From the human T2T-CHM13v2.0 reference genome, Homo sapiens, in assembly GCF_009914755.1 (NCBI RefSeq), contig NC_060937.1: DNA of 64,000 bases. One strand, given 5' to 3'. The notes below the pieces were generated by a model, which was given only the letters and a program-made list of their open reading frames with translations, made no database searches and was not told the DNA's origin. Of this stretch, positions 56,801 to 64,000 are shown in pieces. The position numbers were made by a program, and so were the translations under genes. Each line of letters begins with the position of its first letter. Position 1 is the stretch's first letter.

Positions 56801-57324
56801 GGATTTGTTAACTCAGCTACAAACAGTAGTATCTTGGAAATTGCAAGGCAGACAGAAATTGCTCCTTCTCCTTTCCTGTGAATAAATATCATGCTTTGTT
56901 GCTAGATGCTCCTGATATAACACTTAACGTATGCCAAATTTTGAATCCAGCTACCTATTTGCCTGAACTCACAGGTACCCTACCTAGATCATTCTTGTAT
57001 ACAAGTTATGGAGCAAGTTTACTCCAGCTGTCTGGATTTAAAGGATGAGCCTCTAGATAACCCTGAGGTAGAATGGTTTACAAATGGAAGTAGCTTTGTG
57101 CACCAGGGAAACAGGACAACAAGCTGTTAATACCAGGTGCTAATCATTGGAAAATAGTTAAGCATTTCCATGACTCTATTCATTAGGGAAGAGATTCCCT
57201 GTTTCGAATAATGTCCTGGCTTTTCATAGGAAAAGGCTTACTTAAAACAGTAAAGCAGGTAACTAGGACCTGTGAACTATGTGCCTGGAATAACCTAAAT
57301 AACCAACCTTTAACTTGTCCTCTT
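53836..57324 (+). mobile_element. ERV1 internal region: leader, decayed gag, remnants of pro, RNase H and integrase
   Basis: Gag start MGTTASIPKNSPLRCILEHWD (54971), VHVPFSMSDL, EVSQGKDENPALFQERL, zinc knuckle CAQYKKTGHWKRDC (~56420-56463), NFLLD of protease, WFTNGSSF of RNase H (~57075), CELC of the integrase zinc finger (~57271). Confidence 0.92.
53842..53859 (+). other. Retroviral primer-binding site, tRNA-Arg type
   Basis: tggcagccacgaagggac just after the LTR, versus TGGCGACCACGAAGGGAC (complement of a tRNA-Arg 3' end). Confidence 0.8.
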
Positions 57325-58800
57325 ATTTCTTTTGATATATATTTCTTTTGATATAAATCCCAGAAGTGGGATTGCTAGATCATATGGGAGTTGTATTTTT
57401 AATTTTTTGAGGAATATCCATGCCATTTTCCATAATGGCTATCCAAATTTACCTACCCACCATGGGTATAAAAGTGTTCCTTTTACTGCATATCCTTGCC
57501 AACACTTGCTATGTTTTGTCTTTTTGATAATAGCCATTCTAACAGGTGTGAGGTGATCTCTCTCATTGTGGCTTCAATTTGCAATTCTTGGATGATAGTG
57601 ATTTTGAGCATTTTTTTCATATACCTGTTAGCTATTTATATGTCTTCATTTTAGAAATTTCTATTCATGTCCTTTGCCCATTTATTCGTTTGTTTTTTCA
57701 CTTGAGTTATTTGAGTTCCGTTTATATTTTGGATATGAATCCCTTATCAGATGTATGGTTTTGCAAATCTTCTTTCCAATTTCATAGGTTGTCTCTTTAC
57801 CTGGTTGACTGTTTCCTTTGTTGTGAAGAGGCTTTTTAAGCTTGATACAATCCCATTTGTCTATTTTTGCTTTTGTGGCCTATGCTTCTGGGGACATATC
57901 CAAAAAACCATTGCCCAGCCAAATGTCAAGGAGCTTTTTTCCTACATTTTCCTCTAGTAGGTTAAACATTTTAATTAAAGAGTTATATTTAAGTCTTTAA
58001 TTAATTTTGAGTTGATTTCTTCATAAGGTATGAGATGAGGGTCTAATTTCATTCTTTCGGATATGGATATCAAGTTTTACTAGCATAATTATAGAAGGGA
58101 CAGTACTTTTCTAATTGTGTGCTATTGGCATCTTTGTTGAAAATCAATTGACTGTAAATATGTGAATTTATTTTGGGGCTCTCTAATCTGTCCCATTCAT
58201 CTATGTGTCTGTTTGTGTGACAGCATCGTGATGTTTTGATTACTATAGCTTTGTATTACATTTTGAAGTCAGGTACTGCGAGGTCTCAGGTTTGTTCATT
58301 ATGCTCAAGATTGCTATGCCTATATAGTATCTTTTGTGGTTCCATGCAAATTTTAGGACTGCTTTTTCTATATCTGACATTTCTATGAGAAATTTCAATA
58401 TGAGTTGTAATAAATGTAGAGATAGATTTGAATAGTATGGGCATTGAAACAATATTGGTTTTTTCCAATCCAAGAATACAAGATATCTTTTCATTTTTGT
58501 CTTCTTCAGCTTTTTCTATCAATAGTTTGTATATTTTAGTGTATAGATATTTTACCTCCTTGGCTAAATTTATTTGTGAATGTTTTATTTTATTTATTTA
58601 TTTGTAACTATGGTAAAAGTGTTTTTTTTAACATTTTTTTCCAGATTTTATTGGTTAGAGCATAGAAATAATATTGATTTTTCTATGTTGATTTTTGTAT
58701 CCTGCAAATTTACTAAATTCGTTTATTACTTTTTACTTTTTTTTGGTGGAGTCTTTGGGGGTTCTATATATAAAATGATGTAATCTGCAAATAGGGACAA
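57325..58800 (-). mobile_element. L1MA-type ORF2 3' region, upstream half of an L1 split by the inversion
   Basis: ORF 58243-58494(-) contains IEKAVLKFAWNHKR, matching ORF2p; ends in ...gatctagcaatcccacttctgggatttatatcaaaagaaat. Confidence 0.92.
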
Positions 58801-59754
58801 TTTTATAAGAAATTTCTAATAATTAACTATTTCTCACTTTTAATTTAGAACAGTAAATAGAAACCATTTTCATAGCTTAAGTAATAATTTTATCAAGTTT
58901 TATTTTTATACTCTGACTTTCCCTAAAATAGCTATCTGAAATATTAAAAATAGTGACCCTATCTGGCTTTCATATTTTCTTGTTATCACTCTCCTGGCCT
59001 GTCAAAAGATAAATGATTTGATTATTGCAGGTTTCTAATTTTTCAGCTATTAGCATACGACTTGACAAGACCAAAACTACCAAAACATATTTATGACAGC
59101 TTGCAGCTTGTTTTCCCTCAAAACTAATTTGTTTTTCATAGTTTTTTAATAGAATCTCATAACTTACATTGGTCATCTTGAAGCTGCTAATTCATAATAC
59201 AGTCAAACAGGTACCAAATCATAATACTGGGATTTGCATGTTTCTTCTTATTTGCTCAATTACAGCCTCTCAAAAGTTTTTTGAACAATTTCAGGTTCTC
59301 AAAGATTTTTAAAGTATATGAAGAGGAAAATTGTTCAATGAAAGCTGAATATTTACACATTGAATTATCAATATATCTCATCTTTGATTAGTATTACATA
59401 CAACAAATGACAAGCACATCATTTAACTCAAAATACTTATTTTCGAAAATGCTATTATAATATAAAAAGATAAAATTATTAAGCAACACCTAGTAAAACC
59501 ATTGTTTATAAGAAGCACTTTCTCGTAGGTGTCAGTATAAAGTATACACAGATTAAATTAATCCTGAAATAGTTCCCAGACCTTAGTAAACACTTTTAAT
59601 GACAAATTTGAGTGTTTGTCCTACTGAAACTTTCTAAGTTTTGGTTAGTTCAGTATAGAAAATTTACTGAATCTATTACTACAATGCAGATCTATCATAG
59701 TTTTTTTCTGAGTTAATTTTCTTCTTTTTTTCCAGACGCTGAAAATAATTTTGT

Positions 59755-59922
59755 ATTATTTATTAATTTATTTTTTAATTTGCATAAATGTATGGGGTAA
59801 AAGTGCGGTTTTGTTACATGGATATATTGTGTAGGGAAATAAAAGTGTTTAGTATACCATCACTTGAATCACGTATGTTGTGTCTGTTAAGTAATTTCTT
59901 ATCATTCCCCCTCTCACCTCTC
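59755..59922 (-). mobile_element. Short L1 3' end (L1PB/L1MA-like)
   Basis: T-rich tail, then tatggggtaaaagtgcggttttgttacatggatatattgtgtag...gtaatttcttatca. Confidence 0.75.
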
Positions 59923-59926
59923 TGTG

Positions 59927-61961: not shown

Positions 61962-62495
61962 TGTCAATGAAGAGTCAAACTCTGTAAAATATCTAAAGAG
62001 ATTTATTCTGAGTCAAAGAGAAGTGACCAATAGCCCATGATGCAACCCTCAGGAGAGCTTGAGAACATGTGCTCAGGGTGGTCAGGGCATAGCCTAGGTT
62101 TTTGTTTGTTTGTTTGTTTGTTGAGATGGAGTCTCCCTTTGTCACCCAGGCTGGAGTGCAGTGGCACGATCTCTGCTCACTGCAACCTCCGCCTCCTGGG
62201 TTCAAGTGATTTTCCTGCCTCAGCCTTCGGAGTAGCTGGGATTACAGGTGCCCACCATCATGCTCAGCTAAATTTTGTATTTTTAGTAGAGACAGGGTTT
62301 CATCATGTTGGTCAGACTGGTCTTGAACTCCTGACCTCAGGTGATCCGCCTGCCTCAGCCTCTCAAAGTGCTGGGATTACAGGTGAGAGCCACCACACCC
62401 AGACGGCATAGCGTAATTTTATACATTTTAGGGAGACATGAGACATCAATCAAATAAATGTAAGATATATGTTGGTTCAGTCAAGAAGGTGGGAC
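61962..62495 (-). mobile_element. MER4-family LTR, 3' half (contains an Alu)
   Basis: Reverse strand ends ctcagaataaatctc...ttttacagagtttgactcttcattgaca, followed by TSD GTTG (61958-61961). Confidence 0.92.
62101..62405 (-). mobile_element. Alu SINE (AluSx-like)
   Basis: (tttg)n tail and reverse Alu body; TSD core ggcatagc. Confidence 0.95.
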
Positions 62496-63317
62496 TGTTG
62501 CAGGAAAGGGGTCCCAATCCACACCCCAAGAGAGGGTTCTTGGATCTTGCACAAGAAAGAACTTAGAGGGAATCCACAGTGCAAAGTAAAAGCAAGTTTA
62601 CTAAGAATGTACAGTGGTGAAAAGACAGCTACTCCACAGATAGAGTAGGACGTTTCTGAAAGTAAGAGGAGGAATGTGTCCATCCCAGGTACAATGCTTG
62701 TATATATGGGGAAATGTGCTCTGCTACAAGGGTTTGTGATAAAAGATTAATTTTCTTAATTACAGCTGGGCTGGGGGCCTCACGCCTGTAATCCCAGCAC
62801 TTTGGGAGGCCAAGGCAGGAAGGTCACCTGAGGTCAGGAGTTCTAGACCAGCCTGGCCAACATGGTGAAACATTGTCTCTACTAAAGATACTAAAATTAA
62901 CCAGGCATGGTGGTGGGCACCAGCTACTTGATAGGCTAAGGCAGGAGAATCACTTGAACCCGGGAGGCAGAGGCTACAATGAGTCAAGATCACGCCACTG
63001 CACTCCGGCATGGGCGACAGAGTGAGACTCCATCTCAAAACAAAACAAAAAAAAATCTTGATTACTATATTGCGCAAGAATCAATGTTATTATCCTTCAA
63101 GCAAAATTAGAAATGCATTTGTTCTCCAGATATCAGGATATCTGGACACTCCCAAGTCTGGGACTGTTTAGTAAATGTTATTAATTTGTTCCCTTAACCA
63201 TAAGTACCTAGAGGTGAGGAATGCCTAACCTTCTGAGAATGCAGCCTAGCAAGTCTCAGCCTCATTTTCCCAGCCCTCACTCAAAATGGAGTCGCTCTGG
63301 TTTGAATGCCTCTGACA
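62496..63317 (-). mobile_element. MER41-family provirus 3' LTR (contains an Alu), inverted
   Basis: Reverse complement aligns with 53319-53835; followed by TSD GTCC (62492-62495); preceded on the minus strand by a polypurine tract (~63322-63335). Confidence 0.93.
62765..63055 (+). mobile_element. Alu SINE (AluSx-like)
   Basis: Alu body with (caaaa)n tail; TSD tcttaattac / tcttgattac. Confidence 0.95.
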
Positions 63318-63407
63318 TATATCCCCCCTTCCTTTACAAGAGGACCCTTAATCCTAAGGGTTGCAGAGGGACGAAGATCCATCTTTGATAACCTCTTCAG
63401 GCTGAAT
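63318..63407 (-). mobile_element. 3' stub of ERV internal region with polypurine tract
   Basis: ggaaggggggatata directly upstream of the 3' LTR on the minus strand. Confidence 0.8.
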
Positions 63408-64000
63408 ATCTATCAAAAGAAATGAAAACTATATGTTGAAAAGATACCTGCGCTCTCATGTTCATTGCAGCATTAGTCACAATAGCCAAACTATGGAATC
63501 AACCTAAGTGTCCACCAAGGGATAAATAGCTAAAGAAACTGTGATACAGATACACAATGGAGTACTATTCAGCCTTAAAAAAGAAGAAAATCCTGCGACA
63601 ACATTGATGAACTTGAAGGACATTATACTATGTGAAATAAGCCAGGCACAGAAAGACAAATACTACATGATCGTACTTGAATGCAAAATCTGAGAAAGTT
63701 GGACTCATAGAAGAAAAGAATTAAATGTTGGTTGCCAGGGGCTGGGTGGCGGGATAAAATTGGGAGGTTTTGTTAAAAGTGTACAAAGCTTCAGTTAGAC
63801 ACTATGAATAATTTCCAGAGATCTATTGTACAGTGTGATGATAAGAGCTAATAATAATGTATTGTATACTTAAAAATTGCTGAGGGCATAGATCTCAAAT
63901 GTTCTTACCACAATAAGTGGTAAGTATGTGAGGTGATGGATTCTTAATTCATTTGATTAAATCATTTCACACTATACATATATATATGAAAAAATGACAT
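63408..64000 (+). mobile_element. L1MA 3' end, downstream half of the split L1
   Basis: tatcaaaagaaatgaaa...catgttcattgcagcatt..cacaatagccaa...ggaatcaacctaagtgtcc, then L1MA 3'UTR. Confidence 0.93.

What the first reader, a model, noticed from the sequence alone, without database searches (positions are those of the whole stretch)
57324..63423. Hidden ~6.1 kb inversion that splits four elements onto opposite strands
Seen in sequence: SQSTM1 pseudogene halves at 52490-52917(+) and 59927-61961(-); MER4 LTR halves at 52918-53318(+) and 61962-62495(-); MER41 LTRs at 53319-53835(+) and 62496-63317(-); L1 halves at 57325-58800(-) and 63408-64000(+). Reverse-complementing ~57324-63410 makes all four collinear at once and turns both TSD pairs (GTTG, GTCC) into direct repeats. 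The L1 becomes continuous at ...cttctggga(t)ttatatcaaaagaaat|gaaa. Inference: a single inversion after all four insertions. I cannot tell whether it is fixed, lineage-specific, polymorphic, an assembly artefact or already catalogued.
Basis: partly seen in the sequence, partly recalled or inferred. Interest (0 to 1): 0.85.

Follow-up and report, generated by a model that had tools for sequence, protein, structure and literature searches.

The report
Old 6.1-kb inversion in gene desert
A 6.1-kb piece of a gene-poor stretch of human chromosome 13 was flipped long ago, cutting an L1 element and an old retroviral insert, losing about 2.3 kb of the latter, and leaving a dead SQSTM1 gene copy in two halves on opposite strands; it is a real but ordinary scar of DNA breakage and repair.

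Summary
Mapping each half onto reference copies from the same genome shows that four nested elements are each split onto opposite strands and abut in reference coordinates:
- an intron-less SQSTM1 pseudogene
- a solo LTR inside it
- a gamma-type provirus inside that LTR
- a 5'-truncated L1

One inversion of window 57324-63408 (6,085 bp) explains all four.

New here:
- **Proximal breakpoint.** It lies just after the integrase zinc-binding region of the provirus. About 2.3 kb is missing there (1,478-2,317 bp in 4 of 4 relatives: integrase core, integrase C-terminus, env).
- **Distal breakpoint.** It lies in L1 ORF2. One 15-nt L1 stretch now occurs three times: a tandem pair at the left junction and one copy at the right.
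- **Breakpoint homology.** No inverted homology flanks the breakpoints.

This points to non-homologous break-and-join or template-switch repair, not NAHR, twin priming or misassembly.

The inversion postdates the provirus (LTR K2P 0.16, roughly 35-55 Myr by recalled rates). A CHM13-based inversion call set of 41 human genomes lists nothing here, so it is probably fixed. Its primate lineage of origin could not be tested. Low interest: gene desert, no functional element touched.

The parts
52595..52917 (+). SQSTM1 processed pseudogene, 5' half (parent exons 1, 2, 3a). It ends in the 4-nt GTTG target duplication of the solo LTR.
   Evidence: DNA matches to C5 180376215-180379153; PB1 residues 84-115 of Sequestosome-1, E 1.6e-7
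52918..53318 (+). It ends in the GTCC target duplication of the provirus.
   Evidence: 7 of 7 reference copies continue into window 62495->61970
53319..53835 (+).
   Evidence: 85.9% identical to 63317->62496
53836..57323 (+). Provirus interior: gag (p30), a weak zinc knuckle, and a pol carrying deletions shared with three other copies. It ends just after the integrase zinc-binding region. Homology to relatives stops at 57323, which is the proximal breakpoint.
57324..57340 (-). Left junction filler: an extra ('outer') copy of the 15-nt L1 stretch (57325-57339), with one odd base on each side (57324 and 57340). With 57340-57355 it forms an exact 2 x 16 nt tandem.
   Evidence: direct reading; L1 homology to references ends at 57341/2
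57341..58803 (-). Upstream part of the L1 (ORF2 region). Its 5' truncation point is at 58803.
   Evidence: (30 of 39 non-self hits start at window 58801-58806, none earlier)
58804..59937 (-). Original spacer DNA between the pseudogene's 3' end and the L1's 5' end, carried along in the inversion
   Evidence: no L1 or SQSTM1 homology
59938..61961 (-). SQSTM1 processed pseudogene, 3' half (parent exons 3b-8 and 3' UTR). An unrelated interspersed repeat is inserted at about 60039-60378. RefSeq annotates only 61060-61918 as SQSTM1P1.
   Evidence: (UBA domain, E 1.9e-13)
61962..62495 (-). 3' part of the solo LTR, with an Alu at about 62102-62404
62496..63317 (-). 3' LTR of the provirus, with a 302-nt Alu at 62764-63065
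63318..63408 (-). Last 91 nt of the provirus interior (purine-rich tract before the LTR). Homology to relatives starts (reverse strand) exactly at 63408, which is the inner side of the distal junction.
   Evidence: 4 of 4 relatives
63409..63423 (+). Retained direct copy of the 15-nt L1 stretch (1 mismatch to the two left copies)
63424..64000 (+). Downstream part of the L1. It runs on to 53 nt beyond the window (L001 position 2146), followed by a short A-rich remnant.

Best explanation
**History.** Four elements accumulated at this site in one orientation: an intron-less SQSTM1 copy, a solo LTR inside its ZZ-domain codons, a provirus inside that LTR, and a 5'-truncated L1 about 1.1 kb downstream of the pseudogene. 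Later the DNA broke in the provirus and in L1 ORF2. The 6,085-bp block between the breaks (now window 57324-63408) was rejoined in reverse.

**How it happened.** Repair was non-homologous.
- On the provirus side, about 2.3 kb was lost (integrase core, integrase C-terminus and env).
- On the L1 side, a 15-nt stretch ended up on both sides of the break, as a staggered cut filled in on both ends would give.
- One further tandem copy was added at the left junction during joining.

**Consequences.** The arrangement is probably fixed in humans and has no evident function. It only disrupts dead repeats in a gene desert.

**Shown:** the anatomy, the missing 2.3 kb, the three 15-nt copies and the absence of flanking inverted homology.
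**Inferred:** that everything happened in one event, the staggered-cut reading, fixation and age.
For: - **Split elements.** All four are collinear only across the same two breakpoints.
- **Breakpoint positions.** Provirus homology stops at 57323 and resumes on the other strand at 63408 in 4 of 4 relatives. Those relatives have 2314, 2317, 1478 and 2299 nt between these two points.
- **What was lost.** In the longest relative, that interval carries rve (E 8.4e-11), MLV integrase C-terminus (1.2e-5, below Pfam's cut-off) and TLV_coat (1.3e-8). The window's last 209 nt before the break align to its Integrase_H2C2 region (1e-8).
- **Not relocated nearby.** The missing part is nowhere else in the window: 0 hits at E<=1e-3.
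- **Duplicated L1 stretch.** The 15-nt L1 stretch is present at 57341-57355, 57325-57339 and 63409-63423.
- **No breakpoint homology.** No inverted repeat pairs the two breakpoints. The only inverted pairs found are the LTRs and two Alus.
- **Upper age bound.** The LTR pair is 85.9% identical, K2P 0.160.
- **Human polymorphism.** No chr13 coordinate in 61.60-61.65 Mb appears in the CHM13-based inversion table of 41 genomes.
- **Known class.** Giner-Delgado et al. [quoted passage not shown]
Against: - **One event is assumed, not shown.** The 2.3-kb loss could be a separate deletion, before or after the flip.
- **L1 target-site duplication.** This would prove that the L1 was whole before the flip, but it is inconclusive. 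The 40 nt next to the L1 5' end scored no better than shuffles (411 of 500 as good). An 80-nt flank gave a weak match (25 of 500 as good) that lies 25-70 nt away from the L1 end.
- **Pseudogene target-site duplication.** Only suggestive (12 of 300 shuffles as good).
- **Third 15-nt copy and flanking bases.** A plain staggered cut does not predict the third copy or the single odd bases beside the copies.
- **Fixation rests on absence.** It depends on one call set. I could not read its size limits because the paper reader closed.
- **No other genome examined.** No other primate or human genome could be checked.
Confidence: 0.85

Rival explanations
1. One replication-based template-switching event (FoSTeS/MMBIR or polymerase-theta-type joining with templated insertion), rather than breakage with a staggered cut. 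The fork or repair end switched strands at the L1, copied backwards, skipped 2.3 kb of provirus and re-copied the 15-nt stretch.
For: - Deletion, inversion and a short templated duplication occur together at the junctions.
- The left tandem copy is preceded by the same 4 nt (AATA) that precede the right-hand copy. The extra copy could therefore have been templated from the other junction (my reading).
- Giner-Delgado et al. suggest FoSTeS/MMBIR for such inversions.
Against: The sequence alone cannot tell this from breakage and end joining. The microhomologies are only 1-4 nt and lie in A/T-rich sequence, where they are expected by chance.
Confidence: 0.3
2. Two separate events: a clean inversion, and an unrelated 2.3-kb deletion ending at the same junction, either earlier in the provirus or later.
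For: - This provirus already carries two other internal pol deletions, shared with three other copies, so internal loss is common in this lineage.
- One relative (L045) has only 1478 nt in the interval.
Against: - It needs a deletion boundary to coincide to the base with an inversion breakpoint.
- None of the 4 relatives examined joins the two points directly.
Confidence: 0.2
3. Inversion made during L1 insertion itself (twin priming or another L1-endonuclease-linked rearrangement of the target).
For: - The upstream L1 part is inverted relative to the downstream part, with a 15-nt overlap, as at twin-priming junctions (the twin-priming anatomy is recalled, not read here).
- The duplicated stretch contains a T-rich/A-rich site.
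Against: - 4.6 kb of inverted non-L1 DNA lies between the two L1 parts.
- The provirus, whose LTRs are 86% alike, is cut by the event. The L1 is only 70-76% like other copies and so looks older than the provirus.
- No duplication of the L1 3' flank is found to the left of 57324 (481 of 500 shuffles as good).
Confidence: 0.03
4. Homologous recombination between inverted repeats (NAHR, or retrotransposon recombination-mediated inversion as in Lee et al. 2008).
For: Repeats are abundant here. Inverted Alus and inverted LTRs exist in the present sequence.
Against: - The two L1 pieces are complementary halves of one element, not two chimeric full copies.
- One breakpoint is in provirus pol and the other in L1, with no shared homology.
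- The LTRs are inverted because of the event, not before it.
- Lee et al. 2008 (PMC2603318) was seen only as a search listing and abstract start.
Confidence: 0.02
5. Assembly artefact or a private or rare allele of CHM13.
For: Only one assembly was examined here.
Against: - The junctions carry a deletion and diverged short duplications, not long near-identical repeats that confuse assemblers.
- A misoriented or private CHM13 segment should appear as an inversion in most of 41 genomes mapped to CHM13, yet none is listed at this place.
Confidence: 0.03

Closest known systems
Non-homologous ('NH') human inversions with small deletions or insertions at the breakpoints (Giner-Delgado et al. 2019, PMC6748972; passages and part of the supplements read)
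   Same: There are no inverted repeats at the breakpoints. Sequence is lost at one breakpoint and gained at the other in the derived arrangement. The size is in the kilobase range, and a single origin is implied.
   Different: Those 21 are polymorphic in living humans, whereas this one is in no polymorphism list I could search. The two chr13 entries there (HsInv0340, 44 kb with 10.6-kb duplications; HsInv0341, 18 kb with L1PA3 repeats) are repeat-mediated and lie elsewhere. The 2.3-kb loss here is larger than 'small'.
Staggered-break inversions with short inverted duplications at the breakpoints (described for Drosophila inversions; recalled, not read here)
   Same: A short stretch of the broken sequence sits at both ends of the inverted block, in opposite orientation.
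   Different: Only one breakpoint shows the duplication, it is only 15 nt, and a third tandem copy is present.
L1 twin-priming 5' inversions (recalled, not read here)
   Same: The upstream L1 part is inverted relative to the downstream part, with a few nucleotides of overlap.
   Different: The two L1 parts are not adjacent. 4.6 kb of flanking genomic DNA is inverted with the L1 part, and a younger provirus is cut by the same event.
Retrotransposon recombination-mediated inversions between human and chimpanzee (Lee et al. 2008, PMC2603318; listing and abstract start only)
   Same: An L1 lies at a breakpoint of a small inversion.
   Different: That mechanism needs two inverted homologous elements. 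Here one L1 was cut in two, and the other breakpoint is in unrelated sequence.

Membership tests
Non-homologous (NH) inversion | No inverted homologous repeats spanning the two breakpoints | tested here: met
   The repeat scan of 51000-64000 finds only the LTR pair and the Alu pair, neither at the breakpoints. The junction alignments show provirus against L1 with no shared stretch.
Non-homologous (NH) inversion | Deletion and/or insertion at the junctions of the derived allele | tested here: met
   1478-2317 nt are absent relative to 4 of 4 relatives. There are extra 15-nt copies at both junctions.
Non-homologous (NH) inversion | The uninverted arrangement is ancestral (seen in outgroups) | not testable with these tools
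   No primate genomes are held. Polarity is inferred only from the split elements.
NAHR / retrotransposon recombination-mediated inversion | Two inverted homologous repeats, each remaining full-length and chimeric after the event | tested here: not met
   The L1 pieces are complementary halves that abut in 7 of 9 aligned references. The other breakpoint is in provirus pol.
L1 twin-priming inversion | Inverted and direct L1 parts directly joined, with the whole flanked by one target-site duplication | tested here: not met
   4.6 kb (58804-63408) separates the two parts. There is no match between the 3' flank and the sequence left of 57324 (481 of 500 shuffles as good).
Processed pseudogene of SQSTM1 | Parent exons in order with introns absent | tested here: met
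   Exon matches abut within 0-16 nt in the window while lying 0.2-8 kb apart in C5 180376215-180392454. PDB hits are to Sequestosome-1.
Processed pseudogene of SQSTM1 | Poly(A) tail and target-site duplication | tested here: inconclusive
   Only a 6-A remnant follows the 3' UTR match. The best flank match is reached by 12 of 300 shuffles.
Gamma-retrovirus-like (class I) endogenous provirus | LTR - gag - pol - LTR with a 4-nt target duplication | tested here: met
   Gag_p30 E 6.2e-10. The integrase H2C2 region is identified by alignment to a relative. LTR pair. GTCC at both ends. Env and most of the integrase are absent here.
   No repeat library is held. Both LTRs have many genomic relatives at 80-88% identity.

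The most novel reading that the evidence does not exclude
The flip, the 2.3-kb loss and the templated 16-nt insertion are one complex template-switching event fixed on a specific primate branch, somewhere between the anthropoid ancestor and modern humans. At 6.1 kb it falls below the 10-kb floor of the curated ape inversion list and so has escaped the inversion catalogues. If so, it would be a clean, homoplasy-free phylogenetic marker and a fossil example of MMBIR-type repair.
Probability: 0.3. Interest if true: 0.3.

Novelty: new member of a known kind. Interest (0 to 1): 0.22.

Why it matters
- **Annotation.** It explains why RefSeq annotates only 859 bp of SQSTM1P1. The pseudogene is in fact near full-length, but it is split by two retroviral insertions and one inversion.
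- **Method.** It shows that nested repeats can expose small old inversions without any second genome.
- **Possible uses.** It offers one more dated example of non-homologous inversion with loss and gain at the junctions. If lineage-specific, it would be a rare-genomic-change marker for primate phylogeny.
- **Function.** No gene or annotated regulatory element is affected, so biological consequences are unlikely.

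Tried and rejected
- Translating a pseudogene stretch for a PDB search failed because of stop codons. I replaced it with two stop-free stretches.
- **L1 target-site duplication.** Inconclusive. The adjacent 40 nt scored no better than shuffles. A weak candidate in the 80-nt flank (25 of 500 shuffles as good) is not adjacent to the L1 end. The plus-strand control gave 112 of 500.
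The duplication is only suggestive (12 of 300 shuffles as good). The 5' UTR reading is not supported (201 of 300 as good).
- **Permissive local alignment for the L1 5' end.** It over-extended into flanks and was discarded. Stricter scoring was used instead.
- **Pfam on 11 open stretches of the provirus interior.** Only 1 gave a hit above the cut-off (Gag_p30). The integrase assignment comes from a longer relative.
- **The missing 2.3 kb elsewhere in the window.** No hits.
- **Literature.**
  - 'SQSTM1P1' gave one paper, unrelated by its title and abstract start.
  - In Giner-Delgado 2019, 12 of 14 supplementary files were searched and the only chr13 entries are two other inversions.
  - The Porubsky 2023 tables have no chr13 coordinate beginning 6160-6164.
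  - Yoo 2025 curated only inversions above 10 kb (passage), and its supplement could not be opened.

Full report
**What was checked.** The window is CHM13 chr13:61,566,001-61,630,000, and the whole assembly could be searched. I did not flip the segment in silico. Instead I mapped each claimed half-element, in its present orientation, onto independent reference copies from the same genome, and asked whether the halves abut in reference coordinates.

**SQSTM1 pseudogene.**
- Against the parent locus on contig C5, window 52595-52731, 52736-52834 and 52824-52917 (+) match three successive exons (C5 180376215-348, 180378168-269, 180379060-153).
- On the minus strand, 61959->61830, 61823->61676, 61660->61599, 61613->61401, 61385->61217, 61214->60874 and four further blocks down to 59938 match C5 180379152-180392454 in order.
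- Introns are absent, so this is a processed pseudogene.
- The plus half ends at C5 180379153 and the minus half begins at 180379152. GTTG (parent GCTG) is present on both sides, as expected for a 4-nt target duplication.
- Stop-free translations hit Sequestosome-1 chains: PB1 residues 84-115 from the plus half (E 1.6e-7) and the UBA domain from the minus half (E 1.9e-13).
- An unrelated interspersed repeat with thousands of genomic candidates interrupts the 3' UTR at about 60039-60378.

**Solo LTR.** In 7 of 7 genomic relatives, the plus part (52920-53318/20) is followed directly by the sequence matching 62495/62487->62405 and then 62102->61970 on the minus strand. The 15-nt overlap between the last two blocks and the intervening 300 nt are an Alu with its target duplication.

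**Provirus.**
- The LTRs at 53319-53835 (+) and 63317->62496 (-) are 444/517 identical (K2P 0.160). A 302-nt Alu sits in the second LTR, and GTCC is at both outer ends.
- The interior carries Gag_p30 (E 6.2e-10) and a weak zinc knuckle on the plus strand. The other 9 of 11 open stretches gave no family.
- Homology to relatives ends at 57323 in all nine copies compared, although the query ran on to 57420.
- In four relatives fetched at greater length, the point matching 57323 and the point matching 63408 (reverse strand) are 2314, 2317, 1478 and 2299 nt apart. In 4 of 4 of them, the reverse-strand match begins exactly at 63408.
- In the longest relative, the window's last 209 nt align to the Integrase_H2C2 region. 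The interval that the window lacks carries the integrase core, the MLV-type integrase C-terminus (below Pfam's cut-off) and env.
- The missing part has no match anywhere in the window.
- The inversion is therefore accompanied by a loss of about 2.3 kb.

**L1.**
- The minus half runs from 58803 to 57341. For the 5' end at 58803, 30 of 39 non-self hits start at window 58801-58806 and none earlier. Six of 7 anchors are at 58803-58805, with upstream flanks no better than shuffles in 6 of 7.
- The plus half runs from 63409 to 53 nt beyond the window.
- In L1 reference coordinates the two halves overlap by 10-21 nt.
- With the duplicated stretch set aside, window 57341 and 63424 are 0-2 nt apart in 7 of the 9 references that aligned. 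Two of the 11 tried were too weak, and two had trimmed local alignments.

**Junction anatomy.**
- Left junction: provirus to 57323, then an exact 2 x 16-nt tandem (57324-57339, 57340-57355). Each unit is one odd base plus the reverse complement of the 15-nt L1 stretch. The L1 continues from there.
- Right junction: provirus (reverse strand) to 63408, then the same 15 nt in direct orientation (1 mismatch), then the rest of the L1.
- The 15-nt L1 stretch is thus present three times.
- Nothing longer than about 4 nt is shared between the provirus and L1 ends.

**Mechanism.**
- Complementary halves of one L1, a second breakpoint in unrelated sequence, a deletion and short duplications together exclude recombination between inverted repeats.
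- They fit the non-homologous class. In Giner-Delgado et al. 2019, 21 of 45 human inversions belong to it, 18 of them with small deletions or insertions, and a single FoSTeS/MMBIR event is suggested (passage).
- A 15-nt staggered cut filled in on both ends explains one left copy and the right copy.
- The third copy needs slippage or templated synthesis, which a template-switch model explains equally well. I cannot separate these two from sequence alone.
- L1-insertion-linked inversion is unlikely for three reasons. The event cuts a provirus that looks younger than the L1: its LTRs are 86% alike, against 70-76% identity of this L1 to other copies. There are 4.6 kb of non-L1 DNA between the L1 parts. 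No flank duplication lies left of 57324.
- The positive proof that the L1 was once whole, its own target-site duplication now in inverted orientation, is inconclusive.

**Age and status.**
- The inversion is younger than the provirus. K2P 0.16 between the LTRs corresponds to roughly 35-55 Myr at neutral rates of 1.5-2.2e-9 per site per year (rates recalled).
- There is no lower bound from sequence.
- The CHM13-referenced inversion table of 41 human genomes (Porubsky et al. 2023, PMC10150506, supplement searched) holds no chr13 coordinate beginning 6160-6164. The only such numbers are on chrX. This argues against misassembly, a private allele or a common polymorphism. I could not read the call set's size limits.
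- The 45-inversion set has two other chr13 inversions only.
- The curated ape list covers events above 10 kb (passage), so it would not contain this one.
- 'SQSTM1P1' occurs in one paper, unrelated by its title and abstract start.
Prior listing cannot be excluded.

**Verdict.** The event is more complex than a clean flip, but it belongs to a well-known class and touches nothing functional. Low interest.

Noticed in passing
window 56500-57323; loci L026, L027, L028 versus L029-L034 and L046: The window's provirus lacks about 1.36 kb and about 0.52 kb of pol relative to longer relatives. Three other copies (on C12, C8, C7) align across both gaps without interruption. An internally deleted form therefore seems to have spread to several sites.
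   Followed up: partly
window 54042-54116 and 54139-54213: Two 75-nt direct repeats (76% identical, 97 nt apart) lie in the leader region of the provirus, just downstream of the 5' LTR.
   Followed up: no
window 62102-62404 and 62764-63065: There are two Alu insertions in mutually inverted orientation inside the flipped block, one in the solo LTR and one in the 3' LTR. They are 80-83% complementary and play no part in the breakpoints.
   Followed up: partly
window 60039-60378 (-): An interspersed repeat (2,572 first-look candidates in the genome, 75-81% identity) is inserted in the pseudogene's 3' UTR. Its family was not identified.
   Followed up: no
window 61060-61918 (-) versus 52595-52917 (+) and 59938-61961 (-): The RefSeq SQSTM1P1 model covers only the coding remainder on the minus strand. 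The exon 1-3a part on the plus strand and the 3' UTR are not annotated as part of it.
   Followed up: yes
L045 (C7:23212000-23221999), reverse strand positions 1734-3213: One proviral relative has only 1478 nt where three others have about 2.3 kb. It carries its own deletion in the integrase/env interval, plus Alu insertions.
   Followed up: no
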